From: Octopus vulgaris
Lineage: Eukaryota
Length of the DNA stretch: 64,000 nucleotides
Direction: 5' to 3'
Assembly: GCA_951406725.2 (NCBI GenBank)
Contig: OX597822.1
Span: forward strand, 28,272,001 to 28,336,000
Shown here: positions 4,490 through 29,139 of the stretch, one piece after another
How the letters are laid out: every line of letters begins with the position of its first letter
Numbering within the stretch: the first letter of the stretch is position 1
Program-made: the position numbers and the translations under genes
Notes under the pieces: generated by a model
The model's input: the letters and a program-made list of their open reading frames with translations, nothing else
Database searches by the model: none
Told to the model about the DNA's origin: nothing

Positions 4490-4592
<103 letters not shown>

Positions 4593-4919
4593 CGTACATA
4601 TACACACACACACACATATATACACGTACACACACATGCATATACACATACATACATATACCTACATATACATATATATACATGCACACATATATATACA
4701 TATACTTACATATATACACATATACACATTTTCAAACACATACATATGCTCCCACCTATATACACATACATATACAAAAGTACACATATGCATACGCGAC
4801 GTATCCATAGATACAAGTATACGCACACATACATGCACACATATGTACATATCTACATATCTACATGCCTATACATTCTCGAATCTATATATATATATAT
4901 ATATATACTTATGCATAGG

Positions 4920-4971
<52 letters not shown>

Positions 4972-6063: not shown

Positions 6064-6141
<78 letters not shown>

Positions 6142-6728: not shown

Positions 6729-6759
<31 letters not shown>

Positions 6760-7309
6760 GTATATGTATACATGTATATATATATATATATATTCGTTTA
6801 CTTATTTCAGTCATCTGACTGCGACAAGCCTTGAAAGGTTTGCAAATCAATACCTAGACTTACGTTTTAAAGCCTTGTACTTACTCTATCGGCTTCTTCG
6901 CCGAACCGCTAAGTTAATAGGAGGTAAGCACACCGACACCGGTTGTAGAGCGATGGTGGGAGACAAACAGGGATACAAAGACAAACACAAACTCATACAT
7001 ATATATATGTATGTATATATGTATGTATATATGTATGTATATATGTGAGTGTTTGTGTGTGTGTATATGTGTGTGTATGCGTGTGTGTGTGTATATCAAA
7101 AGAGTTTGATTCAAATTCGTTGGTTCTCTTAAGGTTGAAGCGTGATTCTTGTCGTCAAATTGTTATTTTTTATCCAAGCATATAACTACTATTAAGTTGG
7201 TTGAGTACCCTCCTTTCATTTGTCCACTCACTCGTATATAAAAACCCGAAACCATGTGGTTGGTAAGCAAGCTTATTACGACGCATCCACGCCTGCAAAT
7301 ATATTTATT

Positions 7310-7650
7310 TACAAGGGGAAGGTCGAAATTTTGGATTTTGACTACATTTAATATGAATTTGTACCAATTTTCGTAACCTGTTCTATCTTCGGAAGCTTTT
7401 GTCACTAAATTGATAGCATGCTCAACTCCTTGGCTATGATAGGGAAGAGGTATTGCTGTTAATGGGCCTGAATGAGTTTTAAGAAGATCAACATTTGTAA
7501 AGTTCCGTAAAACTGGAGGGGATGTTATAACTTAATTTTCCCAGTTAATCAAATCAACTTAATCCTGTGCTTCAAAATTAATTTTGCTTGGCATTTTGAA
7601 ATGTCTTAATTCTTCACAAAGCATTCGGAGAAAAGTTCTCCGAAGCACTC
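7310..7650 (-). mobile_element. hAT-type DNA transposase C-terminal relic
   Basis: Minus translation RHFKMPSKINFEAQD*VDLINWEN*...PLPYHSQGVEHAINLVTKASE resembles the P.H.Q.VER.VKLVTEAS C-terminal motif of hAT transposases; contains stops. Confidence 0.6.
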
Positions 7651-7893
7651 GAATTCACTTTACTACCAAGATATGTAAATGACTTCACATAATTTAGGTT
7701 TTTCCCATCAACCTGTATAGGAATGTCAGAGAAATTGTGAAACGGTGTTATGATCAAATTCTAACGTTAGTGTCATGATACGATCAGAAATACCTTTGGG
7801 TAGAAAAAGAAGGAATCTGGCTATTTCTGTCTTGATGGCAAACCAACACCAGACCAGCGAAGTTCGTCCTCACTTCTTCCACGCGTAGAAAAT

Positions 7894-8196
7894 TACGCAC
7901 TAACCTGCTCTGGGTGTCAAGAGCAATACATTGGCCAAACAAAAAACAGTCTACGTAAAAGAATGGCTCTGCTCAGATCCCAGATCAAAACTCTCCAAAA
8001 CAGAAAAATAGCATTCAGCCGACACATCGACATTTGCGCCAATAACAAAAATCCAAGCTTCAGAAATTTTCCACTCTACCAATTCAGAGACGATAGAACC
8101 TATAGCCAACAAATTAGTAAAGAGACTCTCTTTATTACAAAATGCAGACCCCTTTTGAACGCGTCTACAACCAGTCCCTTTTATCATTATAGCTGA
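7894..8196 (+). mobile_element. Penelope-like element GIY-YIG endonuclease fragment
   Basis: In frame with ORF 7963: YALTCSGCQEQYIGQTKNSLRKRMALLRSQI...SRHIDICA...KETLFITKCRPLLN. Confidence 0.8.
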
Positions 8197-9468
8197 ACCA
8201 TCCGACAGAAGAGAAAAAGAAGTGAAGTGACATGTTTATTAGTAGAAATTATACAATTTTACAATTTTAAATATTTGAATGGCTTCCTTACTTTTTCTGC
8301 ATATATTACCCAGTGTCTACATCATGTTTTATGATAATGTATGAATCACTTAGATATTTATATCTAAGTGATTCAAGTAGCGCTGAATGTTCTTTTCCAT
8401 AACCCATTTTGAAGTTGTTGGCAATTCATTAGCATGGTAACAGGTAGAGTTGGTTTTCATATAGGCTGTAGCATTATTGTTAACAAGATGACAATGGAAT
8501 GCGTAGTTAGGAGTTTTGCATATAAATTTTCTATCGTCTGAACAAACAGAGTCGTTTCCGTAATTATTATCATAGAAGCGTTAAAATTCGAAAAAAAAAT
8601 GTCACCTAATAAAATATATATTCTACTTTATACATAGCGCAATTGCCTCTCCGACTATAAATACAAACGTTCACCAATCCAACCTCCTTTCATCCACCAC
8701 CAGCCGCCACAGATTCTCACCAAGTCTGACCTACCACAAACCGCCTTTTCTTCTACTATACCAATTTGTTATCCTTTTACTTTAACCTCAAATGTACTAC
8801 CCTATTTCGCCTTTTGACTTTTCTGCCACTTGCCGCTTATTCCCAAATTCACTTTTGCTTTAAAAGTAGCCGCGACAACCGTGTCTTATTGTTTAGTAAC
8901 TCTTTCTCCACCATACCTGTCTCAAACCAATCCTGACCTATAATTTCTCGTTACAGCTACTCACTGAAACCATCAACCCCACTGTTATTATCAAGAATCA
9001 TTCCATTTTACATCACTATTTCTTTTAGCTACACCTCTACAAGCCTCGTCTATTGCTTTTTTACGTTTCGAACAGTTTTGTCGATGTCTATCCGACTGCT
9101 TCTCGGAGCACATACGAGATATCCAGCTCAACAATGAGCCACCCACTCTCTGTCAATTTCGATCGCGTTTTGCTCCAATTTCGATCGATTTTTGCTCATC
9201 GAATCACCACCGAACACTCGCCACCACAGAAAGAGAAAAGGAGTTTCTCTTCCCTTCAAACTTCTGCCTCTTCACATTGTCTCAATTTGCACATACTTTA
9301 TCTGTAACATACTTTCCATATCAACTTACACATATATATCATAGTCACCTACAGACAAGCACCACACATGCAAAACTAACACACAGACATTCCACGTCCA
9401 CAGCACAAATGCTAATCTCGCATACACACACACACACACATGAATATATATGTATATATATGTATGTG

Positions 9469-9516
<48 letters not shown>

Positions 9517-9611
9517 AGAACACACACTCACACACATGTATATGTATATATCTATCAATCTATCTAACTATATATATATATATATTTATATATATATAGC
9601 AATATATCTAA

Positions 9612-9676
<65 letters not shown>

Positions 9677-10269
9677 AGAACACGCATGCACACACACACA
9701 CACACACACAAATACCGTTAAAATACCAGTCAACACCAACTCAAAAAGGCAACGCATAAAAAAATTCACTCACAAAATACCAACAACACACACAAATAAT
9801 TCAGGAAACAAGTTGAGAAAGAAAAAAAAAGCAATAAGAACCGAAACATATTCGGCAGAGTAACTAAGCTACAAAAACGACAGAGATCAACTATCAACTA
9901 TTAAAGAAAACAAATCACTTTTAAACATGCTAACTGCAGTAACAGAAATTCACAGAACCGTACTGTAAAGCAGCAAACCGCATTAGTAATACTGCGCACA
10001 GTATACCCCTTGTATTGAAGGAGCATAATACAAATACTTTTACAAGGCAAAACACCCCGCTAGGTTTAGATAATTTTATTTAATACAGCTTCGTCTTAGA
10101 GTGTCTTACCCATCAATGACCATAAATGAAGGATTACAGACGTTTTGTTGCAATAATATTATAAAGATTCACCAAATAAAAGATTCACCAAATAAAAATA
10201 CCACACACGGATACAAGATAGAACATAAGACTCATTATATATATACATTATTTACATTATTTACATTAT

Positions 10270-10455
10270 TTTTATTATTTCCATTTGACGGATATTTGTC
10301 CTCGTCTTTGTTGTTAACACAACGTTTCGGTTGATATACCCTCCATCCTTCATCAGGTGTCTTGGGGGTATATCAGCTGGAGGGTATATCAGCCGAAACG
10401 TTGTGTTAACAACAAACAAGATGAAGACAAATATCCGTCAAATGTAAATAATGCA
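10270..10455. repeat. Imperfect palindromic element carrying a hammerhead
   Basis: catttgacggatatttgtc...aacgtttcggttgatataccctcca is inverted as tggagggtatatcagccgaaacgtt...gacaaatatccgtcaaatg; duplicate at ~25190-25375. Confidence 0.85.
10316..10361 (-). ncRNA. Minimal type-I hammerhead motif (Penelope type)
   Basis: Minus: gacac-CTGATGA-a-GGaTG-gagggtatat-CAaCC-GAAA-CG-TT-gtgtt; the opposite arm keeps gctg...cagcc-GAAACGTT but lacks CTGATGA. Confidence 0.65.
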
Positions 10456-10493
10456 AAACATGTACATAATTCCTCATCTCTTAAATATAGAAT

Positions 10494-10532
<39 letters not shown>

Positions 10533-10544
10533 CATACACACACA

Positions 10545-10955
10545 GATGCTGCAAGTTTGACGATTACAAGTGAGTGCAGGTGGTATATTTGTAACCGCTT
10601 TTCTCCTTTGCCTTGCAACCCTAAGTCTGCTAATACCAGTTGCAACGAAGTTTCTTATACCATTTTGACACAACGATCTCCATTTTGTTCGCTCCGAGGC
10701 TATTCGCACAAAAGTGACAAAAGTGTTGTGAGCTATCATCACTGCTGAGAGATTACTCTTCAGCGTGTTCCTATGTCTGACCCATAGTCGACCAACATTC
10801 CGTTATTAGGCTAGATATACATGAGGACTTTGGGTATTTTTTGTTACTCATTCTGATAACATGGCCAGCCCAGCGCAATTGCGACTGCATAAGGAAGCTC
10901 TCGATTCCACCAATCTTAAACTTGCTGAACAGGTCGGCATTTGAAACTCTGTCAT
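10545..10955 (-). mobile_element. RTE-clade LINE 3' fragment
   Basis: Minus translation DRVSNADLFSKFKIGGIESFLMQSQLRWAGHVIRMS...IASERTKWRSLC (LRWAGHV.RM motif); duplicate at ~25484-25894. Confidence 0.8.
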
Positions 10956-10957
10956 TT

Positions 10958-11420
10958 AGTGGGAGAGTGAGGTCGCGCCGATACAGTCATCGATATAACG
11001 ATTGTATAGGTCGGGAGTGGGACCAGGGAATTGTGAGAATATTTGGGCCTCAACGTAACCAGCGAACAGGTTCGCTTAGTTGGGGGCCATTCTCGTTCCC
11101 ATGGCCACTCCTGAGAACGGTTGGTAAAAATCCACCGTGAACGAGACGCAGTTGATGGAGAAAACAAGTTTGGCCAGACAAAGAATTGTGAAGGTGCCAG
11201 GTTGGGGGTCAGGTCGAAGGTCTAGAAAGTATTTTAGTGCAAGAAGTCCTTCGTTGTCTGAGATCGCTGAATATAAACATTTGATATCAAGAATGAACAG
11301 AAATTTAGAGGGGCCAGAAGGTAAGGAGAAAGAATTAAAGAGACGAAGAGCATGGTTTATGTTGTGGATGTGGGAGGGAAGTGGGGGAAGCCACTAGGGG
11401 CCAAGAACACGGTCGAGGTA
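10958..11420 (-). mobile_element. Penelope-like element reverse transcriptase fragment
   Basis: Minus translation FILDIKCLYSAI...SGVAMGTRMAPN*ANLF...YNRYIDDCIG; duplicate at ~25897-26359. Confidence 0.8.
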
Positions 11421-11523
11421 TAAAAATTCAACAAACAATTAAAGATGGAGAAGAAATATTAAAAGTTTTATAAAAATTTTAATCCATGCATAAAGTAAAA
11501 AGGATGAAATTGTACTCAACCTT

Positions 11524-11568
<45 letters not shown>

Positions 11569-12104
11569 CCTGTACGTATACCTATATCAAATTTATATTT
11601 ACGCATATTTATATTTGTATTAAACATGTTTATATATTGAGTTGTGCTTTTTAATGCTAATGCCAATACAGTTGTTATTATGTATGGTATTAGAATATCA
11701 ATAGCCAACCGAACTAAATGCATCTAAATGCCATTTCAAATTTAGTATTTGTCATTAATGCTCTGAGCTCTTTATCAATGAAAATGTTATATAAGCATTT
11801 AAAATCTTAATTTGTAGAGTAAGAGATAGACACATGATAATCCCATGTCATTTTAATCTTATGGTCTCTATTTTGCATATACGTTACTTATGGAATTCGC
11901 TAATTTCCAATTACCAATTATATGACTTTTTTCTAACTTACTTTTCTAATATTACCTTTGCAAATGTCATATTAGAAGCAAAAAGCAATATATTTGAGAA
12001 TGATTCTGTTTGAAGTTGCTTTGGGTTAGGATATTGTATTATCAATATTAATATACTGGTTATGTTCTGCATCATGGTCTTTGTTAAATATTATCTTAAT
12101 ATAT

Positions 12105-12121
12105 ATTTTCTTTATTTTCAG
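12105..12121 (+). promoter_or_regulatory. Probable 3' splice acceptor of a 5'UTR intron (GPCR copy 1)
   Basis: ttttctttattttcAG; the following sequence is homologous to the one after tttctttttttcacAG (55407) upstream of paralogue 3; copy B acceptor at 27061-27062. Confidence 0.6.
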
Positions 12122-12240
12122 ATATGCAACAGTTGATTGCTTCAAAGGAAAAACTGTCTACCTATTTAAGAAACAATATTTTATTATCGAAAATATAAAA
12201 ACACTAACTCAAGGACAAAGTTCTCACACCGGAATTCAAA

Positions 12241-14199
12241 ATGTTCCAGTACTCCAAGAATCTGCTACTCATCTTTATGATAGCTTTTGGCGACGAAGTC
12301 ATTCAACAGTCAAGTTGTTTTACAAAAATTCCTAAATGTAATCAAGCAATGTGTAGCAATTGTTCGTGTGATAAATATTGTTACCTGTATAATGAATGTT
12401 GCTTAGATTGGGTAAATCAAACTAATATAAATCAAAGAACATTGTCAACAGATTACAGTTGCAGGAAAATTGATGCTAATAACAGTTATTTCGTATTTGA
12501 CCGCTGCCCAAGCGACTATTCATTTACAGATCACGTTACTTACTGTGAAACACCAGACGAGAATGACCGATTATACAACATACCTGCTTTGGGAAAACAA
12601 ACTAAAAGACTTTACAGGAATTTGTTCTGTGCTCTGTGTAACGGAGAGGAATACATATTATGGACAGTTCACTACAAATGTAATCAGATGATGGATATAG
12701 ATTTGTCACTCTTCCCTGACAAGATACAGAATCACTGCCAAATATTGTTTGAAGCGCCATCAAACTATAAAGATTACAAATATAACTGTATTCATTACGT
12801 TGCAAAATGTCCTCCAGACGTTGCCAATGCATCCTTAGTTTCTTCGTGTATGTTTGGACCAATGGCTATTGTGAAATCAAATGGAACTAAATTTAGGAAT
12901 ACTCACTGCGCCATCTGCAACGGTTTTCATATTAATGATATTTTCTGTAATGTAACTATCGATGAAAGAACAACATATTTTACCCCGCAATACCCTCTAA
13001 CAATAATATTTAACTATAATGATAATAATTTTGAAGTTTCAAATATGCTCCAACGTAAACTTTATTCGAAACAATTACCCTCTTGTTCACAAGGATATTT
13101 TTACGATGAACAAAAGAAACGATGTCGGCATTTTCACTATAATTCTAGATTAAATTGTACAGCTAAAAGACTGGAAAAATCTGAATATTACATCACTAGT
13201 GATGGAGATCTTTACCTAAATGCTTCCAACATTCTACTCAACCAATCAGCATTCATTCATGATCCACAAGGTATAAGTATTTGTGTAAATAACAGAACAC
13301 ATGGGATGGGAAAATATTATACTTTTGCAAGCTATATCACGTTAGTAGGACTAGTGACATCTATTCCTGCTTTATTCATTACTATCATAGTTTATCTTTG
13401 TATACCTGATCTCCTTACATTACCAGGTAAACTTCTCATTAGCCTTTTATTATCATTGTTTACAGCAGAACTCCTGCTTCTTATCTCACCACAAGTTACA
13501 TCGAGTTCCTTGTGTACAACAATAGCTGTTCTCATGCATTATTTTTTCCTGGCGGCTTTCTTCTGGATGAATGTCATGTCATTTGATGCCTGGTACACTT
13601 TTTCAGGATTTACACCGCTTCGAAGTACAGAAAAAGACACAAAGAGACTTGTCTACTATTCTTTATATGCTTGGATATGTCCACTTATAATTGTGACAAT
13701 CTCACTCGTATTTCAATATGCACCCGGGAACCATGCACTCTCTCCAGAATATGGAAAAGGATTTTTTTGTTGGATTACAAATATAAAATCTCGATTGTGG
13801 CTCTTTGCAGTGCCGCTAATAATAATTTTGTTCCTTAATATATTGTCTTTCATACTCACTGCCAGGGGTCTCTATTTAGCAAGTAAAAACTCATCTAAAT
13901 ATCTGGAAGTAAAGAATAGGACGAAATTTAAGGTTTATTTTAAGCTAAGCCTTGTAATGGGCTTAACATGGATATTTAGCTTCTTTCCAAAATTGAATGA
14001 AATCGGTGTACTTTTTCTCATAGCCTGTATTTTAAATTCCTTCATTGGCTTAATAATTAGCATATCATTTTTATCAACGAAAATTGTAAGACGACATTTT
14101 CATCTTAAATGCTACCAAAGATATTACAAAAAGGAATGCAAACATACTGACATATATACCAGTTCTAACAAAACGCAGTCGACCAATGTACATATATAG
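12241..14199 (+). CDS. Secretin/adhesion-class (Methuselah-like) 7TM GPCR with somatomedin-B-like and Cys-rich ectodomain, 652 aa, intronless CDS
   Basis: Hydrophobic N-terminus, CSCDKYCYLYNECCLD, two RNxxCAxCNG repeats, seven hydrophobic helices with family-B motifs HYFFLAAFFWMNVMSFD, YAWICP, CWI, MGLTWIF. Confidence 0.93.
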   Translation: MFQYSKNLLLIFMIAFGDEVIQQSSCFTKIPKCNQAMCSNCSCDKYCYLYNECCLDWVNQTNINQRTLSTDYSCRKIDANNSYFVFDRCPSDYSFTDHVTYCETPDENDRLYNIPALGKQTKRLYRNLFCALCNGEEYILWTVHYKCNQMMDIDLSLFPDKIQNHCQILFEAPSNYKDYKYNCIHYVAKCPPDVANASLVSSCMFGPMAIVKSNGTKFRNTHCAICNGFHINDIFCNVTIDERTTYFTPQYPLTIIFNYNDNNFEVSNMLQRKLYSKQLPSCSQGYFYDEQKKRCRHFHYNSRLNCTAKRLEKSEYYITSDGDLYLNASNILLNQSAFIHDPQGISICVNNRTHGMGKYYTFASYITLVGLVTSIPALFITIIVYLCIPDLLTLPGKLLISLLLSLFTAELLLLISPQVTSSSLCTTIAVLMHYFFLAAFFWMNVMSFDAWYTFSGFTPLRSTEKDTKRLVYYSLYAWICPLIIVTISLVFQYAPGNHALSPEYGKGFFCWITNIKSRLWLFAVPLIIILFLNILSFILTARGLYLASKNSSKYLEVKNRTKFKVYFKLSLVMGLTWIFSFFPKLNEIGVLFLIACILNSFIGLIISISFLSTKIVRRHFHLKCYQRYYKKECKHTDIYTSSNKTQSTNVHI

Positions 14200-14236
14200 T
14201 ATTATTTATAAACGTATCCTAAACACTTTACGGGTT

Positions 14237-14310
14237 TAAATTAATACTCAGTCTATGGTTAAATTAATACTCAGTCTATGGTTAAATCTAGTCTATGGTT
14301 AAATCTAGTC
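14237..14310 (+). repeat. Short tandem repeat just after the GPCR stop codon
   Basis: (ttaaattaatactcagtctatgg)x2 then ttaaatctagtctatgg-ttaaatctagtc; copy at ~29177-29250. Confidence 0.8.
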
Positions 14311-14964
14311 CACAAATCGCGTACCGTCTTAAAGCAATGTGCTAACATCCATTATTCCTGCACTTTCTCCAAATACGTATGACATTCTCGTGCTGAGTTT
14401 TTCTTGTGAAAAGGCAATTAGTATATGCAATATATCCAACAATTACGGGTGGACGCATTAATTTCGAAATAGTATATCCTGACGATACATGAATTTCTCT
14501 TTATCTCTCTTTTTCTGTCTCGCACCTTCTCGCTCTCTTATTCCCCCTTCTCTTTATCTCACCCCCTCTCACTCTGCTCCATTTTCATTTCAAATCACAG
14601 AGAAGGTGGCCTTGAAAATCAACGTTTAGCAGAAAACTGCCTGCAAGGTTTTATTTCTGCACTACAAATTCCCATTACCTCCCAGATCTAATACTGATTA
14701 CGTATGATAAAACTGCCAAAACCCAAAATTCCAAAGCATGGTAATATTCAACGTCTCCCCAACATCTTTTACTAGAGAGCGTCTAGATAATATTGGTTTA
14801 CCACAAAGCTAGCAATTTTCGTTGAAATACGCTGTCTTTTATTTCAATTAATTTCAAAACTAAAGATTGGTCGGATTTTATTGATCACGTGTGCGATATT
14901 CTAGCGAATCGTGAGGCAATACTGAAAATACTCTGCCGGTTCACTACCTTCGTCTATGTTATAT

Positions 14965-15192
14965 TATTGGTTTCAAATGTTGGCACAAGGCTGGCAGTTT
15001 CGTGAGAGAAGTTAGATAGATTGCATCGACCCCTGTGTTTAATGGATTATTTTATTGATTATTTTATTGTCCCCCAAAGGAATGAAAGGCAAAGTTGACC
15101 CCGGCCGCATTTGAGCCCAAAATGTAAAGACTAACGAAATGCTGCTAAGTTTTTGCCCGATGTTTTAACGATTCTGCTGGTTAGCCGCCTTC
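14965..15192 (-). mobile_element. Degenerate tRNA-derived SINE
   Basis: Reverse-complement similarity to 15350-15563 and to the head/core of 36052-36279; copy at ~29906-30133. Confidence 0.65.
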
Positions 15193-15349
15193 TTGTATGT
15201 TATGGTACTCAAGTTCAAGAAAAGTTTCTTATCCAAAATAGCTAAAACATCATTGCAAATATCTTGAAGTTAGCTATGGTTACCTTTAAAACACTCTAGA
15301 TTCTCAAGTTAAAGAAAAGTTTCTTATGGTATTAGCCAGATATTTTAAG

Positions 15350-15563
15350 CAACCAGCTGGCAAATCCGTGGGCACGCCGGGCAAAATGCTTAACGGCATT
15401 TTGTCTGTGTTTACGTTCTGAGTTCAAACTCTGCCGAGGTCAACTTTATCTTTCATCCTTTCTGAGTCGATAAAATAAGTAACAGTTGAACACTGGGGTC
15501 GATGTAATTGACTTGCTCCGCTCCTGAAATTGCTGGCCTTGAGCCAAAATTTGAAACCAGTAT
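15350..15563 (+). mobile_element. Degenerate tRNA-derived SINE
   Basis: gcacgccgggcaaaatgctt...gagttcaaact (B-box-like)...ctttcatcctttc...gtcgataaaataagt core; copy at ~30291-30504. Confidence 0.7.
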
Positions 15564-16977
15564 CATAACATGGTTCTTTAGACGTCCTACAATCACTTCC
15601 TATCAGCTCTCTACAATGAAGGTTGGATATATAGCTAGTACATACTGAATTTTCCCGAGAAAACCCTTCTCTAGTAAGCGCCTCCAACACAGCAGCAACA
15701 TTTGTAAGTTAGCCTACTAACCCATTCGCAATGTGCACATGTGTTTATGTGCCTTCGTATTATATTTCTCATAAATATGGAGATTTTACATTGGTAGCAC
15801 TATCCACAACCTACACGTTCGAATTAAATACAAATACCTCCTTTGTCAAAAAATTCTGGAAAAATGCCATAACATAGAGATAAGGGCGGTTACCAAAGCC
15901 ACAAAATGAAATATTTGAAATCTGAGGAGTAAACAAATCATTTTGATTTAAAAAGCAAAACGTTAACCAGTCTTATTAATGGTAGAATTATCTAAACTAC
16001 ACTGATTGGCTGATTTCATTAACACAAAAAGTCAGCATCTTCCACAAATTCTCCCCAAGATTTTAGCGTCCAAAATGTAACTGATTCCTTATTTTAACCT
16101 GTTATGATTTTGAATCTTCTGATAATTTGGAAATTGATTTTTAAATCTACAAGGCTATCAGCTGAAAATGGGTAGATATAAAATTGGCTTACTTAATCAG
16201 AAACTTTCCTGCAGAAATTACTAACAAAAAGACATTTTTTCGACCAGAGAGACTTAAATGTGGCGGCCAATTTCACCATTCACGATACACGCATGCGAGA
16301 TCCATTTCACTAAATGAAATATCTACTATCCCGGACGTATAGTTCAGGAGCTTCTATATTCGAATACAAAAGCGCTTCCCCACATGGGCATATCCTTCAA
16401 AAATCACTGCAACACATATAGCCACGGGAAAATGGACATTGCTATCAGCATCAAATTCGCATAAGTAATTTGGAAATGAAAAGAGCATATACAAATTATT
16501 AATAACCTACACGAATTGGATAACATTCACTGGCTACTTTAGCAAATTTGGTTGATCATCGTGCGTACCTGTACTTAAAACCAATAACTTTTCTCTATGT
16601 CATAGCAGCATACTTAAGCTAACAGCATATTGGACACAGATTGAACGCAAACTTTTGCAATTTTACAACTCAACACATGCTTTCTTTGAATTTTGTTCAC
16701 ACAACGCCGCGAGGCTAACTCAAGCTGACAATTATTTTCTCTCTTTATTTTGTCTTCGTGTACATTTGGAAAGAGTTATTCTATCAAGATTATTAAACAT
16801 CTTTAAGGTAATGATTCAAAAGTTTTGTTTTTTTCATTTGTAGTTATTCTCCTATATACTGCCACATTCGAACACGCAAACACATATATATATGTGTGTG
16901 TGTGTAAGTATATACACATATAGGTGTGTGTGCATTTGTGTGAGTGTGTGTGTTAGTGTGTGGTTATGTGTATATGT

Positions 16978-17013
<36 letters not shown>

Positions 17014-17265
17014 ATGCGTGTGCCTGAGTAAGTGAATATGCATTTATTTTATCAAATACATGTTAAATTATCTGTAACATACAACTTTGTAACAAAATGT
17101 TGGTTTCTCACAAATTTAATTACTTGAATGCAATCGAATGTACATTATGCATTGCACGAGCACGCGTGTATGTGTATAGAAACATATAATTCTTGATGTC
17201 TAAAACGTACCAAAAGTTATATTTCGTTACAATCACATTCGGAGTCAACAATAACGAAATGTTTA

Positions 17266-17649
17266 TCTCTATATATAAACGGCAGTTTGTCTGTGTGTGT
17301 TTCTGTGTGTCTGTTTGGTTGTACCCTCACCCTGACCACGGCTTTCAACCGATTCTGATGAAACTTGACACACACATAGCCCAATGTCATAATTCAAAAC
17401 TAACGCAGCGAAAATTTTGAAAAGTTCCCCCAGTTCTGAAAAAAATCGATAAATTCGACATGGGGTCGAGAATCAGAAACCCAAACCACAGACCGTCTAG
17501 GGGACGCAACTCCACCTTTTTTAACTCTCAAAAAAAATTTACCATCATTTTTTTTCCATTTTTTTTGCTAATTTTTGGCTATAACTCTCTAAAAATGCTT
17601 TATAGTTATTTCCCTTACAAACCTGAGCAACGCCGGGCGATACTGCTAG
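17266..17649 (+). mobile_element. Non-autonomous Helitron, junction copy
   Basis: Same termini as 1091-1472 (a^TC...CTAG^t); different left flank, same right flank. Confidence 0.8.
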
Positions 17650-18887
17650 TGTATAAATATATATAAGTCAATTACATTGATTGAATATCTTCATTTATGC
17701 GTTCGAGAATCTGTTTGACTACGTAGGATTTGAGTTTTCAATTTCCCCCTTTACATATATATATATATATATATATACAGAGAGATACACGTCTATGTAA
17801 CAGCCTACTATCAAATCTACATGTGTATGTATAAACTGTGGGTATTGGGTTATCCCTACCTCCTACGTATATCTCCGATTATTGGGGATGTTTCATTTAT
17901 GAAGACGTACTCCTGTATTTGTCTAAGTGTTGGGTCCTTCGGTTGCTTGGATAAAATGCGGCTGTCAAGTCGACCCCGTGTGCTTCCATGTTGGTCTTTG
18001 GCATGTTGGTAGAGTACTGAGGACTGCTTTTGTCGTCATATTGTGTCAATATGACGACAAATTGTATCCAAAAACATAGCCGTAAATTTTTTACAGGTAT
18101 GTTTTTGGATAAATATTAATTAGCTCTATTTACGAAATCACAAGCACTATCATTCCTCTGAAGTTATTGCCGAGTCTTGTTATACTTAAGTACTAGTTTT
18201 ATTATTATTTATACACCCTGGTACCCCTAGGAAAACGATTAACCCACCAATTATTTTTGTAGATTATTTGCTAGTTTACTATTTTTGCCCATCGACTCAA
18301 GCTTTATACTGCAAAATGGTATGATTCGAATTTATTGGGCCTTCTTTCTGAATCTCGAGGACCTGTTCTTTCCTCTTCCCTCTTCTTTTAGTATTCGTAT
18401 TCGCTCTGATGAAGCTGCATGTAGTAGATCGGATTTGCTATAAAGATGACGAATATTATTTTCATAATTTTCCTTGGAGGCACCGACTGACATTGGTACT
18501 GAAACGGCTATAAGCAATGTAAAAGTTTTGTATTAAAAAATGATTAACCGATGTTGGTCAATTTGTTTGCTTCTTGCTTAAAAGCTTTCAACATTTTCTG
18601 CATATTTTAAATTTGATTCATGATAAAAGCTTGTTTATTCTGGTATTTCCTGTACCATATGAACATAGTGTGCTTACATACCCATGCCCAGGGCTAATGT
18701 AGGTAATTGATACCGGGAATAAGAACGCATATTCTAATCCGTTAGACGGACGGTTACTCCAGCTGCTAACTCTACTTACCTCATATATATACCACATATA
18801 TATGTGTGTGTGCGTGTGTGCGTGTGCATAACATATATGTATATATGTATATATATATATGCATGTGTGTGTATATATATATATATA

Positions 18888-19671
18888 CTAGCTTAAAAGC
18901 CGCCCTATCGGGTGGCTGTTACGCTAGCTTCTGTGGAGGGCTCTTCATTAGACCTTGAGCACTACAAAGACACTTCATGCATTGAGTACATATTAAATTT
19001 TATTAAACTTGAATATTTCTCAAGCAATGAACACTTTTCATCAAAACAATGATATAATTTGTCGACTTGGAACTTATTGCGAGGCTGCATGATAAACAAC
19101 AGTACCATCTCCATCGCCATCAGATCTACCATATACACCATTCAGACGTCTGACGCCACCATCATCAATACCTTTGACTTCGCCGCCTTCCCTTCCACCA
19201 TCCTCACCTCTGTCTTTCAAATCGCTTACTCTCACCGTAATTCCTCACTGCCTCGACTACCACCAACACCACCATAATTACCGCTGCATCCGTCTCTATC
19301 ACAACTACAGCTCATACTATTACTATCATCCCATTACCATTAGTTCAGCATTCTGATTCAGTGTTCAGTCCCTCTTTCTATCACATACCCATGCATTCTC
19401 TCTCTTATTATTACCCCCACTGGCATCACCAACACTGCTACTTTTAATAAAACATCATCAACTCTCTCTAAGCTTCCTTGTCTCTATCTCTCTCTCTCTT
19501 TTTCTTTTCTCTCTCTTTCTCTGTCTGTCTTAGCCATCACCCTCATCTTCTTTATGCCTCTGTTATTACTCTCACTCCAGCACGAAGATTACTAGTAGTA
19601 TCATTGAATAGTGAGAGACGGGTGTCAAAGTGTGACACACAGACACACAGAAATTAGTTTTCGCATTTATC

Positions 19672-19675
<4 letters not shown>
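18888..19675 (-). mobile_element. Non-autonomous Helitron (duplicate of 2711-3500)
   Basis: Copy within the duplication. Confidence 0.6.
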
Positions 19676-19706
<31 letters not shown>

Positions 19707-19743
19707 AATGAAATACAATGAAAAACAGGACACAAAGGATGTC

Positions 19744-19836
19744 GCGGTACATATGTTTCGAGCTTTATAGAATAACTTATTCTTACATCAATGCATAATC
19801 GACATAACAGATAGTTCAAAAGCCCTCTTCAGCCCC
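19744..19836 (-). ncRNA. Type-I hammerhead motif (duplicate of 3569-3661)
   Basis: Identical copy in duplication B. Confidence 0.65.
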
Positions 19837-20664
19837 ATGCAATTGCTAAACCAAAAACTTGTACCACATTATGAAAGGTTTGAGATAAAACAGTTGGTAT
19901 TGTTTATAATGGTAGGTAAACCGAGTATCACCGGGAAAGTATGATTGTAAATCTTCATAATCAAGTAGGCGTACATGGTATTATTAGACTCCAAAAAATC
20001 GTCCATACCGTTTTCTCACTCAATATAGAGTGAATACTGGGTAGATTCCGGTTGGGTTTATTCTTCTTGTAAGGGAAGGAATTGGATGTTGAGAGAAAGA
20101 GAAAAAGGGGAAAAGAGGGGAGGGGGAGGAAACGTTAATGAAGTTGGGATGACAAAAAATATATATATAACTATAAAGGATAATAAAATATAAAATATAA
20201 TAAAATTAAAGATGTAAAAATGTAAATATATAAAGATATAAATAACGTCAGGTATAGGGTCATAAATTCTAGAAATGTATTGTGAAAGTGTAAAAGGTAC
20301 AAAAAATAAAGAGTAAAAAATAAAAATAACAAAAATAAAGATAAAATGAGATAAAGATAAAAAGATACAAAAGTAAACAAAGCGGTCGTAAAGGCAAAAG
20401 GATTAAGATAGAGAGATAATGGGTTAAAATTCTGAAGCTGTGGAGAGCGTCGTAAATTACTTTTGATTATCGGGGGCGCGGAAGAGGAGTGAAATATGAT
20501 ATAGTTGAGGCGAGTGGTCAGTTTATAGCAGTCCCACGTTACATGCTTTAAGCCTATCTTGTGTGTCTACATACTTACCCACTCTCACATATATAAACCT
20601 GTCTCCTGCAACTAGGGATATGTCCGGATGTTGGTATCATTACACACCCTATGTCATCCTCAAT

Positions 20665-20743
<79 letters not shown>

Positions 20744-21096
20744 TATACATATATATATATATATACGTACATATACACACACACACACACATATATATAT
20801 ACGTACACACACATGCATATACACATACATACATATACCTACATATACATATATATACATGCACACATATATATACATATACTTACATATATACACATAT
20901 ACACATTTTCAAACACATACATATGCTCCCACCTATATACACATACATATACAAAAGTACACATATGCATACGCGACGTATCCATAGATACAAGTATACG
21001 CACACATACATGCACACATATGTACATATCTACATATCTACATGCCTATACATTCTCGAATCTATATATATATATATATATATACTTATGCATAGG

Positions 21097-21160
<64 letters not shown>

Positions 21161-21654
21161 CAACTACATACACACTTATATGCATACATACAATCATACA
21201 TACGTACCCACCAATCACTGGAACTGTAAAAATCGGTCAGACTTTCCAGAAGATTTAGGTATATATGCATGAAAATACATACATAAAACAAAACATTCAC
21301 ATTCTGATGTTGTTGAAACTCCAATGAAAGAGACTTGGATCTAGGTTAGAAGCAGTGTGTGGATCAAAAGACATTTTAAGATCCAGAAAGGTCGGAACTT
21401 ATCTGCAGTTCTTGGTGTTCCAAATCGGCTATTCAATGTATGTGGATGTCTTTTCAGAACATTGTCTGGTTTAAAAAGACCACAACAGATGCCATGATGG
21501 TTCGAAGATATAGGTACAGGAGGTGATTAAACTCTGCATAAGGAGTAGACAACCACCATATATGTATATGTATATGTATGTATATATATATATGTATGTA
21601 TATATATATATATGTATATATATATATGTATGTATATATATATGTATATGTATG

Positions 21655-21685
<31 letters not shown>

Positions 21686-22237
21686 GTATATGTATACATG
21701 TATATATATATATATATATATTCGTTTACTTATTTCAGTCATCTGACTGCGACAAGCCTTGAAAGGTTTGCAAATCAATACCTAGACTTACGTTTTAAAG
21801 CCTTGTACTTACTCTATCGGCTTCTTCGCCGAACCGCTAAGTTAATAGGAGGTAAGCACACCGACACCGGTTGTAGAGCGATGGTGGGAGACAAACAGGG
21901 ATACAAAGACAAACACAAACTCATACATATATATATGTATGTATATATGTATGTATATATGTATGTATATATGTGAGTGTTTGTGTGTGTGTATATGTGT
22001 GTGTATGCGTGTGTGTGTGTATATCAAAAGAGTTTGATTCAAATTCGTTGGTTCTCTTAAGGTTGAAGCGTGATTCTTGTCGTCAAATTGTTATTTTTTA
22101 TCCAAGCATATAACTACTATTAAGTTGGTTGAGTACCCTCCTTTCATTTGTCCACTCACTCGTATATAAAAACCCGAAACCATGTGGTTGGTAAGCAAGC
22201 TTATTACGACGCATCCACGCCTGCAAATATATTTATT

Positions 22238-22578
22238 TACAAGGGGAAGGTCGAAATTTTGGATTTTGACTACATTTAATATGAATTTGTACCAATTTTC
22301 GTAACCTGTTCTATCTTCGGAAGCTTTTGTCACTAAATTGATAGCATGCTCAACTCCTTGGCTATGATAGGGAAGAGGTATTGCTGTTAATGGGCCTGAA
22401 TGAGTTTTAAGAAGATCAACATTTGTAAAGTTCCGTAAAACTGGAGGGGATGTTATAACTTAATTTTCCCAGTTAATCAAATCAACTTAATCCTGTGCTT
22501 CAAAATTAATTTTGCTTGGCATTTTGAAATGTCTTAATTCTTCACAAAGCATTCGGAGAAAAGTTCTCCGAAGCACTC
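22238..22578 (-). mobile_element. hAT-type transposase relic (duplicate)
   Basis: Copy of 7310-7650. Confidence 0.6.
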
Positions 22579-22821
22579 GAATTCACTTTACTACCAAGAT
22601 ATGTAAATGACTTCACATAATTTAGGTTTTTCCCATCAACCTGTATAGGAATGTCAGAGAAATTGTGAAACGGTGTTATGATCAAATTCTAACGTTAGTG
22701 TCATGATACGATCAGAAATACCTTTGGGTAGAAAAAGAAGGAATCTGGCTATTTCTGTCTTGATGGCAAACCAACACCAGACCAGCGAAGTTCGTCCTCA
22801 CTTCTTCCACGCGTAGAAAAT

Positions 22822-23124
22822 TACGCACTAACCTGCTCTGGGTGTCAAGAGCAATACATTGGCCAAACAAAAAACAGTCTACGTAAAAGAATGGCTCTGC
22901 TCAGATCCCAGATCAAAACTCTCCAAAACAGAAAAATAGCATTCAGCCGACACATCGACATTTGCGCCAATAACAAAAATCCAAGCTTCAGAAATTTTCC
23001 ACTCTACCAATTCAGAGACGATAGAACCTATAGCCAACAAATTAGTAAAGAGACTCTCTTTATTACAAAATGCAGACCCCTTTTGAACGCGTCTACAACC
23101 AGTCCCTTTTATCATTATAGCTGA
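22822..23124 (+). mobile_element. Penelope-like GIY-YIG fragment (duplicate)
   Basis: Copy of 7894-8196. Confidence 0.8.
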
Positions 23125-24396
23125 ACCATCCGACAGAAGAGAAAAAGAAGTGAAGTGACATGTTTATTAGTAGAAATTATACAATTTTACAATTTTAAAT
23201 ATTTGAATGGCTTCCTTACTTTTTCTGCATATATTACCCAGTGTCTACATCATGTTTTATGATAATGTATGAATCACTTAGATATTTATATCTAAGTGAT
23301 TCAAGTAGCGCTGAATGTTCTTTTCCATAACCCATTTTGAAGTTGTTGGCAATTCATTAGCATGGTAACAGGTAGAGTTGGTTTTCATATAGGCTGTAGC
23401 ATTATTGTTAACAAGATGACAATGGAATGCGTAGTTAGGAGTTTTGCATATAAATTTTCTATCGTCTGAACAAACAGAGTCGTTTCCGTAATTATTATCA
23501 TAGAAGCGTTAAAATTCGAAAAAAAAATGTCACCTAATAAAATATATATTCTACTTTATACATAGCGCAATTGCCTCTCCGACTATAAATACAAACGTTC
23601 ACCAATCCAACCTCCTTTCATCCACCACCAGCCGCCACAGATTCTCACCAAGTCTGACCTACCACAAACCGCCTTTTCTTCTACTATACCAATTTGTTAT
23701 CCTTTTACTTTAACCTCAAATGTACTACCCTATTTCGCCTTTTGACTTTTCTGCCACTTGCCGCTTATTCCCAAATTCACTTTTGCTTTAAAAGTAGCCG
23801 CGACAACCGTGTCTTATTGTTTAGTAACTCTTTCTCCACCATACCTGTCTCAAACCAATCCTGACCTATAATTTCTCGTTACAGCTACTCACTGAAACCA
23901 TCAACCCCACTGTTATTATCAAGAATCATTCCATTTTACATCACTATTTCTTTTAGCTACACCTCTACAAGCCTCGTCTATTGCTTTTTTACGTTTCGAA
24001 CAGTTTTGTCGATGTCTATCCGACTGCTTCTCGGAGCACATACGAGATATCCAGCTCAACAATGAGCCACCCACTCTCTGTCAATTTCGATCGCGTTTTG
24101 CTCCAATTTCGATCGATTTTTGCTCATCGAATCACCACCGAACACTCGCCACCACAGAAAGAGAAAAGGAGTTTCTCTTCCCTTCAAACTTCTGCCTCTT
24201 CACATTGTCTCAATTTGCACATACTTTATCTGTAACATACTTTCCATATCAACTTACACATATATATCATAGTCACCTACAGACAAGCACCACACATGCA
24301 AAACTAACACACAGACATTCCACGTCCACAGCACAAATGCTAATCTCGCATACACACACACACACACATGAATATATATGTATATATATGTATGTG

Positions 24397-24444
<48 letters not shown>

Positions 24445-24539
24445 AGAACACACACTCACACACATGTATATGTATATATCTATCAATCTATCTAACTATA
24501 TATATATATATATTTATATATATATAGCAATATATCTAA

Positions 24540-24596
<57 letters not shown>

Positions 24597-25233
24597 AGAA
24601 CACGCATGCACACACACACACACACACAAATACCGTTAAAATACCAGTCAACACCAACTCAAAAAGGCAACGCATAAAAAAATTCACTCACAAAATACCA
24701 ACAACACACACAAATAATTCAGGAAACAAGTTGAGAAAGAAAAAAAAAGCAATAAGAACCGAAACATATTCGGCAGAGTAACTAAGCTACAAAAACGACA
24801 GAGATCAACTATCAACTATTAAAGAAAACAAATCACTTTTAAACATGCTAACTGCAGTAACAGAAATTCACAGAACCGTACTGTAAAGCAGCAAACCGCA
24901 TTAGTAATACTGCGCACAGTATACCCCTTGTATTGAAGGAGCATAATACAAATACTTTTACAAGGCAAAACACCCCGCTAGGTTTAGATAATTTTATTTA
25001 ATACAGCTTCGTCTTAGAGTGTCTTACCCATCAATGACCATAAATGAAGGATTACAGACGTTTTGTTGCAATAATATTATAAAGATTCACCAAATAAAAG
25101 ATTCACCAAATAAAAATACCACACACGGATACAAGATAGAACATAAGACTCATTATATATATACATTATTTACATTATTTACATTATTTTTATTATTTCC
25201 ATTTGACGGATATTTGTCCTCGTCTTTGTTGTT

Positions 25234-25279
25234 AACACAACGTTTCGGTTGATATACCCTCCATCCTTCATCAGGTGTC
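25234..25279 (-). ncRNA. Minimal hammerhead motif (duplicate of 10316-10361)
   Basis: Identical copy. Confidence 0.65.
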
Positions 25280-25408
25280 TTGGGGGTATATCAGCTGGAG
25301 GGTATATCAGCCGAAACGTTGTGTTAACAACAAACAAGATGAAGACAAATATCCGTCAAATGTAAATAATGCAAAACATGTACATAATTCCTCATCTCTT
25401 AAATATAG

Positions 25409-25471
<63 letters not shown>

Positions 25472-26462
25472 CATACACACACAGATGCTGCAAGTTTGAC
25501 GATTACAAGTGAGTGCAGGTGGTATATTTGTAACCGCTTTTCTCCTTTGCCTTGCAACCCTAAGTCTGCTAATACCAGTTGCAACGAAGTTTCTTATACC
25601 ATTTTGACACAACGATCTCCATTTTGTTCGCTCCGAGGCTATTCGCACAAAAGTGACAAAAGTGTTGTGAGCTATCATCACTGCTGAGAGATTACTCTTC
25701 AGCGTGTTCCTATGTCTGACCCATAGTCGACCAACATTCCGTTATTAGGCTAGATATACATGAGGACTTTGGGTATTTTTTGTTACTCATTCTGATAACA
25801 TGGCCAGCCCAGCGCAATTGCGACTGCATAAGGAAGCTCTCGATTCCACCAATCTTAAACTTGCTGAACAGGTCGGCATTTGAAACTCTGTCATTTAGTG
25901 GGAGAGTGAGGTCGCGCCGATACAGTCATCGATATAACGATTGTATAGGTCGGGAGTGGGACCAGGGAATTGTGAGAATATTTGGGCCTCAACGTAACCA
26001 GCGAACAGGTTCGCTTAGTTGGGGGCCATTCTCGTTCCCATGGCCACTCCTGAGAACGGTTGGTAAAAATCCACCGTGAACGAGACGCAGTTGATGGAGA
26101 AAACAAGTTTGGCCAGACAAAGAATTGTGAAGGTGCCAGGTTGGGGGTCAGGTCGAAGGTCTAGAAAGTATTTTAGTGCAAGAAGTCCTTCGTTGTCTGA
26201 GATCGCTGAATATAAACATTTGATATCAAGAATGAACAGAAATTTAGAGGGGCCAGAAGGTAAGGAGAAAGAATTAAAGAGACGAAGAGCATGGTTTATG
26301 TTGTGGATGTGGGAGGGAAGTGGGGGAAGCCACTAGGGGCCAAGAACACGATCGAGGTATAAAAATTCAACAAACAATTAAAGATGGAGAAGAAATATTA
26401 AAAGTTTTATAAAAATTTTAATCCATGCATAAAGTAAAAAGGATGAAATTGTACTCAACCTT

Positions 26463-26509
<47 letters not shown>

Positions 26510-27181
26510 CCTGTACGTATACCTATATCAAATTTATATTTACGCATATTTATATTTGTATTAAACATGTTTATATATTGAGTTGTGCTTTTTAATGCTA
26601 ATGCCAATACAGTTGTTATTATGTATGGTATTAGAATATCAATAGCCAACCGAACTAAATGCATCTAAATGCCATTTCAAATTTAGTATTTGTCATTAAT
26701 GCTCTGAGCTCTTTATCAATGAAAATGTTATATAAGCATTTAAAATCTTAATTTGTAGAGTAAGAGATAGACACATGATAATCCCATGTCATTTTAATCT
26801 TATGGTCTCTATTTTGCATATACGTTACTTATGGAATTCGCTAATTTCCAATTACCAATTATATGACTTTTTTCTAACTTACTTTTCTAATATTACCTTT
26901 GCAAATGTCATATTAGAAGCAAAAAGCAATATATTTGAGAATGATTCTGTTTGAAGTTGCTTTGGGTTAGGATATTGTATTATCAATATTAATATACTGG
27001 TTATGTTCTGCATCATGGTCTTTGTTAAATATTATCTTAATATATATTTTCTTTATTTTCAGATATGCAACAGTTGATTGCTTCAAAGGAAAAACTGTCT
27101 ACCTATTTAAGAAACAATATTTTATTATCGAAAATATAAAAACACTAACTCAAGGACAAAGTTCTCACACCGGAATTCAAA

Positions 27182-29139
27182 ATGTTCCAGTACTCCAAGA
27201 ATCTGCTACTCATCTTTATGATAGCTTTTGGCGACGAAGTCATTCAACAGTCAAGTTGTTTTACAAAAATTCCTAAATGTAATCAAGCAATGTGTAGCAA
27301 TTGTTCGTGTGATAAATATTGTTACCTGTATAATGAATGTTGCTTAGATTGGGTAAATCAAACTAATATAAATCAAAGAACATTGTCAACAGATTACAGT
27401 TGCAGGAAAATTGATGCTAATAACAGTTATTTCGTATTTGACCGCTGCCCAAGCGACTATTCATTTACAGATCACGTTACTTACTGTGAAACACCAGACG
27501 AGAATGACCGATTATACAACATACCTGCTTTGGGAAAACAAACTAAAAGACTTTACAGGAATTTGTTCTGTGCTCTGTGTAACGGAGAGGAATACATATT
27601 ATGGACAGTTCACTACAAATGTAATCAGATGATGGATATAGATTTGTCACTCTTCCCTGACAAGATACAGAATCACTGCCAAATATTGTTTGAAGCGCCA
27701 TCAAACTATAAAGATTACAAATATAACTGTATTCATTACGTTGCAAAATGTCCTCCAGACGTTGCCAATGCATCCTTAGTTTCTTCGTGTATGTTTGGAC
27801 CAATGGCTATTGTGAAATCAAATGGAACTAAATTTAGGAATACTCACTGCGCCATCTGCAACGGTTTTCATATTAATGATATTTTCTGTAATGTAACTAT
27901 CGATGAAAGAACAACATATTTTACCCCGCAATACCCTCTAACAATAATATTTAACTATAATGATAATAATTTTGAAGTTTCAAATATGCTCCAACGTAAA
28001 CTTTATTCGAAACAATTACCCTCTTGTTCACAAGGATATTTTTACGATGAACAAAAGAAACGATGTCGGCATTTTCACTATAATTCTAGATTAAATTGTA
28101 CAGCTAAAAGACTGGAAAAATCTGAATATTACATCACTAGTGATGGAGATCTTTACCTAAATGCTTCCAACATTCTACTCAACCAATCAGCATTCATTCA
28201 TGATCCACAAGGTATAAGTATTTGTGTAAATAACAGAACACATGGGATGGGAAAATATTATACTTTTGCAAGCTATATCACGTTAGTAGGACTAGTGACA
28301 TCTATTCCTGCTTTATTCATTACTATCATAGTTTATCTTTGTATACCTGATCTCCTTACATTACCAGGTAAACTTCTCATTAGCCTTTTATTATCATTGT
28401 TTACAGCAGAACTCCTGCTTCTTATCTCACCACAAGTTACATCGAGTTCCTTGTGTACAACAATAGCTGTTCTCATGCATTATTTTTTCCTGGCGGCTTT
28501 CTTCTGGATGAATGTCATGTCATTTGATGCCTGGTACACTTTTTCAGGATTTACACCGCTTCGAAGTACAGAAAAAGACACAAAGAGACTTGTCTACTAT
28601 TCTTTATATGCTTGGATATGTCCACTTATAATTGTGACAATCTCACTCGTATTTCAATATGCACCCGGGAACCATGCACTCTCTCCAGAATATGGAAAAG
28701 GATTTTTTGTTGGATTACAAATATAAAATCTCGATTGTGGCTCTTTGCAGTGCCGCTAATAATAATTTTGTTCCTTAATATATTGTCTTTCATACTCACT
28801 GCCAGGGGTCTCTATTTAGCAAGTAAAAACTCATCTAAATATCTGGAAGTAAAGAATAGGACGAAATTTAAGGTTTATTTTAAGCTAAGCCTTGTAATGG
28901 GCTTAACATGGATATTTAGCTTCTTTCCAAAATTGAATGAAATCGGTGTACTTTTTCTCATAGCCTGTATTTTAAATTCCTTCATTGGCTTAATAATTAG
29001 CATATCATTTTTATCAACGAAAATTGTAAGACGACATTTTCATCTTAAATGCTACCAAAGATATTACAAAAAGGAATGCAAACATACTGACATATATACC
29101 AGTTCTAACAAAACGCAGTCGACCAATGTACATATATAG
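27182..29139 (+). pseudogene. GPCR copy 2, same sequence as copy 1 but with a 1-nt deletion (T7 to T6, 28703-28708) truncating after TM4; pseudogene or sequencing error
   Basis: ORFs 27182..28726 and 28612..29139 together rebuild the 652-aa protein. Confidence 0.8.

What the first reader, a model, noticed from the sequence alone, without database searches (positions are those of the whole stretch)
17255..17285. Gene duplication breakpoint sits exactly at a Helitron 5' end joined to an A^T site
Seen: copy A ends ...aatgtttA and runs straight into TCTCTATATATAAA, the Helitron 5' terminus. The equivalent position at the end of copy B is the empty site aatgtttA^Tgctagt (32200/32201). Known: Helitrons insert between A and T and can bypass their 3' terminator. 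Inference, three models: (1) one-ended rolling-circle transposition, with the 5' end joined to a target 16 kb downstream and copying running through the GPCR gene; (2) unequal crossover between the upstream Helitron and a polymorphic downstream insertion in a heterozygote; (3) an assembly mis-join of two haplotypes through the repeat. Models 1 and 2 would catch Helitron-driven GPCR family expansion in the act.
Basis: partly seen in the sequence, partly recalled or inferred. Interest (0 to 1): 0.8.

Follow-up and report, generated by a model that had tools for sequence, protein, structure and literature searches.

The report
Helitron-edged tandem duplication of octopus GPCR
In this octopus sequence a 16-kb stretch holding one receptor gene is repeated head to tail with the seam at the start of a small rolling-circle transposon, likely because the transposon's enzyme overran its stop signal and rejoined the strand beside a look-alike stop 16 kb away, though the duplicate is so far seen only in the assembled sequence.

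Summary
Observation confirmed. Unit A (1091-17265) and unit B (17266-32200) are a tandem repeat, 9 substitutions in 13,529 masked columns. The seam joins ...TTTA to the 5' TC of a 382-bp non-autonomous Helitron, within a 3-nt TA|T microhomology. (1) The 'empty' site begins TGCTAG|T, identical to the element's own last six bases plus T; contigs of three other samples (two species labels) carry this site empty, so the motif is native. (2) The element's terminator hairpin has a stem change (CCT; relatives mostly CCC). (3) All substitutions lie near the unit's ends and a 7,252-column core has none, which fits copies born identical better than two alleles. I favour a RepHel read-through duplication made in cis (about 0.45), over insertion plus unequal crossover (0.2), assembly artefact (0.18) or host repair of a RepHel nick (0.12). 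No read spanning the seam was seen, depth could not be tested, and copy B's gene is frameshifted in a T run. Helitron-linked tandem gene duplication has already been proposed in poplar, so this is a well-resolved variant, not proof that Helitrons expanded octopus GPCRs.

The parts
1091..17265 (+). Duplication unit A (16,175 bp): Helitron, about 11 kb upstream DNA, GPCR gene, about 3 kb downstream DNA
17266..32200 (+). Duplication unit B (14,935 bp), lacking about 1.26 kb present in A
1091..1472 (+). Non-autonomous Helitron-type element, 382 bp, 5' TC, 3' CTAG, between A and T (presumed donor)
   Evidence: related ends
17266..17649 (+). Second copy of the element at the seam; 1 substitution and 2 homopolymer indels from the first
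17264..17266 (+). Seam: 3-nt microhomology TA|T containing the A|TC junction
1445..1460 (+). Subterminal palindrome, 12 nt before the 3' end, with T at 1447 where 37 of 56 related ends have C (same in copy B, 17622-17637)
   Evidence: folds weakly, -2.7 kcal/mol, z 0.62
32201..32207 (+). Native TGCTAG|T directly after the A^T site, identical to the element's last 6 nt plus T; candidate cryptic terminator
   Evidence: present and empty in contigs of X1, X3, X4
12241..14199 (+). Intact single-ORF class B (7tm_2, Mth-like) GPCR, 652 aa, copy A
27182..29139 (+). Copy B of the GPCR, frameshifted by one missing T in a T run at about 28702 (stop at 28726); real mutation or long-read consensus error
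5164..6428 (.). About 1.26 kb present in A only; no TSD or other copy in the window, 1-nt microhomology; likely a deletion in B
32652..33940 (-). Decayed RepHel (PIF1 helicase) remnant of a different Helitron family, 3' CTAG at 32652-32655; a neighbour, no role shown

Best explanation
A 16-kb unit starting at a Helitron's 5' end and holding one GPCR gene stands twice in tandem in this sequence, and it was likely made in one cis event in which a Helitron transposase nicked the element's 5' end, likely read through its weakened hairpin, and likely joined that end to an A six bases short of a native look-alike of its own 3' end. Steps: (shown) seam A|TC, no element at the distal end, TGCTAG|T present once and native, hairpin stem change, identical core. 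(Established for Helraiser) RepHel nicks at A^TC, stays linked to the 5' T, peels the plus strand while the 3'-OH primes replacement synthesis, and often bypasses the 3' end. (Inferred) the enzyme paused at the cryptic TGCTAG|T, and the 5' T was joined to a 3'-OH ending in ...TTTA. That 3'-OH was either the newly made strand trailing the enzyme, which gives X-H-G-H-G-Y directly, or came from a target-type cut at A^T, giving a circle that re-entered the locus by homology. (Inferred) the substitutions at the unit's two ends came later from single-copy homologues, by recombination or by haplotype mixing in the assembly.
For: Seam exactly at TC preceded by A, the junction Helraiser makes (PMC4778049). 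Read-through of at least 1.6 kb in about 11.7% of Helraiser events and at least 36% without the hairpin. Hairpin arm is CCT here against CCC in 37 of 56 related ends and CCT in 3 of 56. TGCTAG is the commonest terminal hexamer of those ends (24 of 56). In the window only 1 of 11,018 A^T sites is followed by TGCTAGT (this one) and 21 of 11,018 have CTAGT within 9 nt. 0 of 56 related insertion flanks have CTAGT within 9 nt (1 has CTAG), so ordinary target choice does not explain it. The site is empty and carries the motif in 3 of 3 runs with a contig. 0 substitutions in a 7,252-column core against 3 in 586 and 6 in 5,691 at the ends, largest-gap P 0.0095. A named O. bimaculoides orthologue is intact across the T run.
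Against: No read or contig carrying the seam was seen; the three contigs run unbroken across the site, and depth had no baseline. The enzyme would have passed 9 other CTAGT, one of them TGCTAGT at 2092. A canonical stop at the motif would leave CTAG|TC at the seam, as in L055, so the off-by-six join is my inference and has no precedent in what I read. Helraiser shows no local hopping. The motif coincidence and the core test were noticed after the fact. A clean core could also come from gene conversion or polishing. The octopus family's own consensus is unknown, so CCT may be normal for it. The 1.26-kb indel must then postdate the event. No active partner transposase was identified.
Confidence: 0.45

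Rival explanations
1. Ordinary insertion, then unequal crossover: a family member inserted at the A^T site on one chromosome, and its 382 bp recombined with the upstream element of a chromosome lacking that insertion.
For: Gives the same structure from two known processes; recombination between near-identical Helitrons is the explanation preferred for Fusarium rearrangements (PMC13342296). In the 3' third, A and B differ by 0.105%, near the at most 0.3% implied by word shares of 0.91 in other runs.
Against: No filled site in 3 of 3 informative runs. Does not explain TGCTAG|T (0 of 56 flanks). Two homologues should differ across the core, which has 0 substitutions in 7,252 columns; published species heterozygosity is 1.22%. 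The seam copy differs from the upstream one at 1 of 382 bases.
Confidence: 0.2
2. Assembly artefact: A and B are two haplotypes of one locus, one with a private insertion at the distal site, joined through the element.
For: Seam not seen in reads; contigs of three samples show a single unbroken site. Six one-base indels, mostly in homopolymer runs, point to long-read consensus error. Divergence is at allelic level. P0001 repeats the ectodomain twice but was probably called on this same duplication, so it is not independent.
Against: It also needs a filled allele, not seen. The substitution-free core is unexpected for two alleles.
Confidence: 0.18
3. RepHel only made the nick; a replication fork collapsed there and host repair joined the broken end to a site 16 kb away through the TA|T microhomology.
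For: Explains the exact 5' breakpoint, the 3-nt microhomology, identical copies and the empty distal site; template switching at transposon ends is described (PMC8277862).
Against: Does not predict the terminus look-alike at the distal end; the shared A and T of the microhomology are what a transposase join gives anyway.
Confidence: 0.12
4. An ordinary microhomology-mediated tandem duplication that starts at the element by chance.
For: 3-nt microhomology in AT-rich DNA.
Against: About 1 in 10^4 for the left end alone (estimate), plus the motif at the right end.
Confidence: 0.03

Closest known systems
Helraiser 3' transduction / read-through (Grabundzija 2016, PMC4778049; 2018, PMC5876387)
   Same: 5' TC joined to A; bypass of the 3' end; downstream host DNA carried; alternative ends overlap the target; aberrant circle junctions are common
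   Different: There the copy lands at a new site and no local hopping was seen; here the copy is in tandem, 16 kb long, and the seam stops six bases before the CTAG
Helitron-paired KCS tandem array of Populus trichocarpa (PMC13253262)
   Same: [quoted passage not shown]
   Different: In the passages read, no breakpoint or empty distal site is resolved; here the seam is resolved to 3 nt with an empty allele, but in one locus only
IS91 one-ended transposition and ISCR1 tandem amplification in bacteria (PMC13181058; PMC10819877)
   Same: HUH rolling-circle element fails to terminate and mobilises neighbours; tandem units each bounded by one element
   Different: Bacterial, autonomous elements; the ISCR1 amplification model is itself stated to be unverified
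DINE-1/DNAREP1 at breakpoints of young Drosophila duplicates (PMC2211543; PMC4067079)
   Same: Rolling-circle element at gene-duplicate boundaries in an animal; mechanism open between NAHR and end bypass
   Different: Helentron-type ends, dispersed duplicates, older events
FoHeli1-associated rearrangements in Fusarium TR4 (PMC13342296)
   Same: Breakpoints align exactly with Helitron ends
   Different: Large deletions, explained by recombination between copies

Membership tests
Non-autonomous Helitron (TC...CTAG type) | 5' TC preceded by A | tested here: met
   Both copies; relatives with the same 3' end start A|TC then a TATA-rich run in L032, L076, L015
Non-autonomous Helitron (TC...CTAG type) | 3' CTRR followed by T | tested here: met
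   CTAG|T at 1472 and 17649; 56 distinct ends of this type among 109 scan rows (the pattern itself required CTAGT)
Non-autonomous Helitron (TC...CTAG type) | Hairpin about 11 nt before the 3' end | tested here: inconclusive
   Palindrome at the right place but with a stem change; folding no better than shuffles, z 0.62
Non-autonomous Helitron (TC...CTAG type) | Insertion at A^T without target duplication, shown by an empty allele | tested here: inconclusive
Non-autonomous Helitron (TC...CTAG type) | Dispersed copies and a RepHel partner in the genome | not testable with these tools
   No genome held; exact-family scan of metagenome contigs found 0; a paper lists 8 recently active Helitron families, 178 insertions, in O. 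vulgaris
Canonical Helitron 3' transduction | Captured DNA ends at an alternative CTRR-like end joined to T at a separate target | tested here: not met
   Copy is in tandem; unit ends at A; TGCTAG stands once. It works like read-through but is not a canonical transduction
Head-to-tail Helitron circle or array junction | CTAG joined directly to TC | tested here: not met
   Seam is TTTA|TC; a canonical CTAG|TC example is L055
NAHR between two element copies | Parental allele with the element at the distal site | tested here: inconclusive
   0 of 3 informative runs; contigs cannot show absence
Haplotypic false duplication | Single-copy total depth and no reads across the seam | not testable with these tools
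   Only contigs were laid; one depth figure per contig, no baseline
Class B (7tm_2) Mth-like GPCR | PF00002 domain above the curated cut-off | tested here: met
   93.5 bits, E 1.6e-26 for copy A; 86% to an O. bimaculoides protein named Mth

The most novel reading that the evidence does not exclude
Helitron transposases make host tandem duplications in one step: after overrunning the terminator they join the element's 5' end to the trailing new strand beside a cryptic CTAG, leaving a recognisable signature (A|TC seam, empty distal end, CTAG a few bases beyond it). If general, short non-autonomous Helitrons upstream of single-exon receptor genes would seed tandem gene arrays in cephalopods without any second repeat copy.
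Probability: 0.22. Interest if true: 0.72.

Novelty: new variant of a known kind. Interest (0 to 1): 0.42.

Why it matters
Rolling-circle elements are often found at gene-duplication boundaries, but whether they act through their transposase or merely as recombination substrates is open (PMC2211543, PMC4067079, PMC13342296, passages). A young seam with an empty ancestral site and a terminus look-alike gives a signature that separates the two and can be counted in long-read data or tested with Helraiser. For octopus biology the gain is modest: one extra, possibly broken, GPCR copy that was not seen in three other samples' contigs.

Tried and rejected
Own genome: none held, so no family consensus, copy number or genome-wide survey. 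Exact-family 3' end scan of metagenome contigs: 0. Other copies of the element in the window: none, only microsatellite matches. Idea that TGCTAG is the stump of a recently deleted element: rejected for the time of this event, since the motif stands in two species labels; no hairpin precedes it. Idea that O. sinensis shares B's frameshift: rejected, P0004 shifts upstream and keeps the T run. Run X20 gave no contig, which can be a filter effect. The neighbouring RepHel remnant found no match among the 109 loci. Earlier findings: none near or by sequence; 8 listed by words, none on Helitrons. Literature searches (listings and abstract starts, plus passages of the papers named) showed no base-resolved Helitron 5'-end tandem duplication with an empty distal site; most subscription papers are outside the library and no supplements were read.

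Full report
Observation. The sequence at 17258-17279 is AATGTTTA followed by TCTCTATATATAAA, and the equivalent place at the end of the second copy is AATGTTTA followed by TGCTAGT at 32200/32201. The 14-mer stands only at 1091 and 17266. Self-alignment shows a tandem repeat: unit A 1091-17265 (16,175 bp) and unit B 17266-32200 (14,935 bp), with about 1.26 kb (5164-6428) in A only. The breakpoint cannot be placed more finely than a 3-nt microhomology, TA|T, which includes the A^T. The window has no N; no whole genome was held.

Organism and gene. The duplicated ORF (12241-14199, 652 aa) is a class B GPCR (PF00002, 93.5 bits). Its best named relatives are octopus Mth-like receptors: P0001 (O. 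vulgaris, 100% over the ectodomain), P0004 (O. sinensis, 96%) and P0002 (O. bimaculoides, 86%, intact). P0001 carries the ectodomain twice and ends in an exon at 39037-39123, so it was probably called on this same duplication and is not independent support. Copy B lacks one T in a T run at about 28702 and stops at 28726. Five other one-base indels between A and B lie in or beside homopolymer or dinucleotide runs, so this frameshift may be a consensus error. The paralogue at 55.5-57.5 kb is about 61% identical and 93% identical to an O. bimaculoides protein, so that duplication is old and has no copy of this element beside it.

The element. It is 382 bp, starts TC after an A and ends CTAG before a T. 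A gapped scan of metagenome contigs for its 3' end returned 109 rows. Keeping gaps of 7-11 nt and AT-rich flanks and removing duplicates left 56 distinct ends; the other 53 rows were dropped. Families of these share the upstream sequence and differ after CTAG, as transposon termini do. Three such loci start A|TC followed by a TATA-rich run, like this element, and L055 shows a canonical head-to-tail CTAG|TC junction. The hairpin arm reads CCC in 37 of 56 and CCT, as here, in 3 of 56. The octopus family's own consensus is unknown, so 'weakened hairpin' is an inference. The palindrome folds no better than shuffles.

The seven bases after the 'empty' A^T are TGCTAG|T, identical to the element's last six bases plus its target T; TGCTAG is also the commonest terminal hexamer among the related ends (24 of 56). 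Among 11,018 A^T sites on both strands of the non-duplicated window this is the only one followed by TGCTAGT, and 21 have CTAGT within 9 nt. None of the 56 related insertion flanks has CTAGT within 9 nt and one has CTAG, so ordinary target preference does not account for it. The coincidence was noticed after the fact and should be discounted for that.

Other samples. Of 24 runs listed for 27149-32312 I laid 4 on 31960-32312. X1 and X3 (organism A) and X4 (organism B) each gave one contig running unbroken across 32200/32201; X20 gave none. There were no loose ends or joints. All three have G at 32191 (copy A's letter) and C at 32081 (copy B's letter). So the empty site, with its TGCTAG, is the common native state, and each copy carries one change of its own in this stretch. 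Neither the seam nor a filled site was seen. This is not proof of absence: Logan contigs come after graph simplification and short contigs are dropped (PMC12424806, passages), and X1 was read to about 80%.

Divergence pattern. Outside simple repeats A and B differ at 9 of 13,529 columns: 3 of 586 at the left end, 0 of 7,252 in the core (1710-11411) and 6 of 5,691 at the right end; a gap that long arises in 0.95% of random placements. Word shares of 0.91 imply at most about 0.3% difference between B and other animals, and published heterozygosity is 1.22% (10.1101/2023.05.16.540928, passages). Two alleles should differ across the core. Copies born identical, whose outer parts were later exchanged with or mixed with a single-copy homologue, give this pattern; gene conversion or polishing could too. 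If all nine changes postdate the event, the rate in PMC13282606 (passages) gives roughly 0.09 million years as a rough upper figure.

Mechanism. From Helraiser (PMC4778049, passages and sections 10-11; PMC5876387, passages): the transposase nicks at the 5' end, stays bound to it, peels the plus strand while the free 3'-OH primes resynthesis, reads through at least 1.6 kb in about 11.7% of events and at least 36% without the hairpin, and makes many aberrant junctions. I infer that it ran 16 kb, paused at the native TGCTAG|T, and joined the bound 5' T to a 3'-OH ending in ...TTTA. If that was the trailing new strand, one reaction yields the tandem product with TGCTAG kept once and no element at the distal end; a target-type cut at A^T with circle re-entry gives the same. 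Against this: 9 CTAGT were passed, one of them TGCTAGT at 2092; a canonical stop would leave CTAG|TC; Helraiser shows no local hopping; no partner transposase was found (the PIF1 remnant at 33398-33940 belongs to another family), although 8 recently active Helitron families are reported in the species. I give this 0.45, insertion plus unequal crossover 0.2, assembly artefact 0.18, host repair of a RepHel nick 0.12 and chance 0.03; these are judgements, not computed values.

Comparison and novelty. Helitrons paired with every copy of a tandem gene array, with end bypass proposed, are reported in poplar (PMC13253262, passages). Breakpoints at Helitron ends are reported in Fusarium (PMC13342296, passages), rolling-circle elements at young Drosophila duplicates (PMC2211543, PMC4067079, passages), and failed termination with tandem amplification in IS91 and ISCR1 (PMC13181058, PMC10819877, passages). 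The structure works like read-through but fails the tests for canonical 3' transduction and for a head-to-tail junction. What is new is the resolved seam with an empty ancestral allele and a terminus look-alike; searches showed no such case, within a library that lacks most subscription papers, and I read no supplements. Verdict: a new variant of a known kind, one locus, unconfirmed in reads; interest 0.42.

Noticed in passing
window 32652-33940 (-), homology probably further up: Decayed autonomous Helitron of another family: PIF1 helicase fragment (E 6.8e-39) and a 3' end with palindrome and CTAG inserted in a TA run, 450 bp beyond the duplication's distal end
   Followed up: partly
window 59980-63395 (-): LINE with long open frames: endonuclease (330 aa) and RT plus zf-RVT (820 aa) in overlapping ORFs separated by one frame change; looks young
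   Followed up: partly
window 47158-49337 (+): Broken LINE reverse transcriptase, 444-aa open stretch
   Followed up: no
window 55525-57537 (+): Intact older paralogue of the GPCR, 93% to O. bimaculoides P0003
   Followed up: partly
window 44937-45814: Second small near-identical direct repeat, 418 bp at 98.6%, 460 bp apart
   Followed up: no
window 39037-39123: Used as last exon of public model P0001, which fuses the ectodomains of copies A and B; likely a mis-annotation caused by the duplication
   Followed up: partly
L055, about 573 bp before its match: Canonical head-to-tail Helitron junction CTAG|TC in a metagenome contig
   Followed up: no
window 14236-14310 and 29176-29250: Short nested tandem repeats (23 and 17 bp units) just after the GPCR stop; one A/B substitution lies in them
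   Followed up: no
P0004 (O. sinensis orthologue): Truncated by its own frameshift a few codons before the T run that is short in copy B
   Followed up: yes
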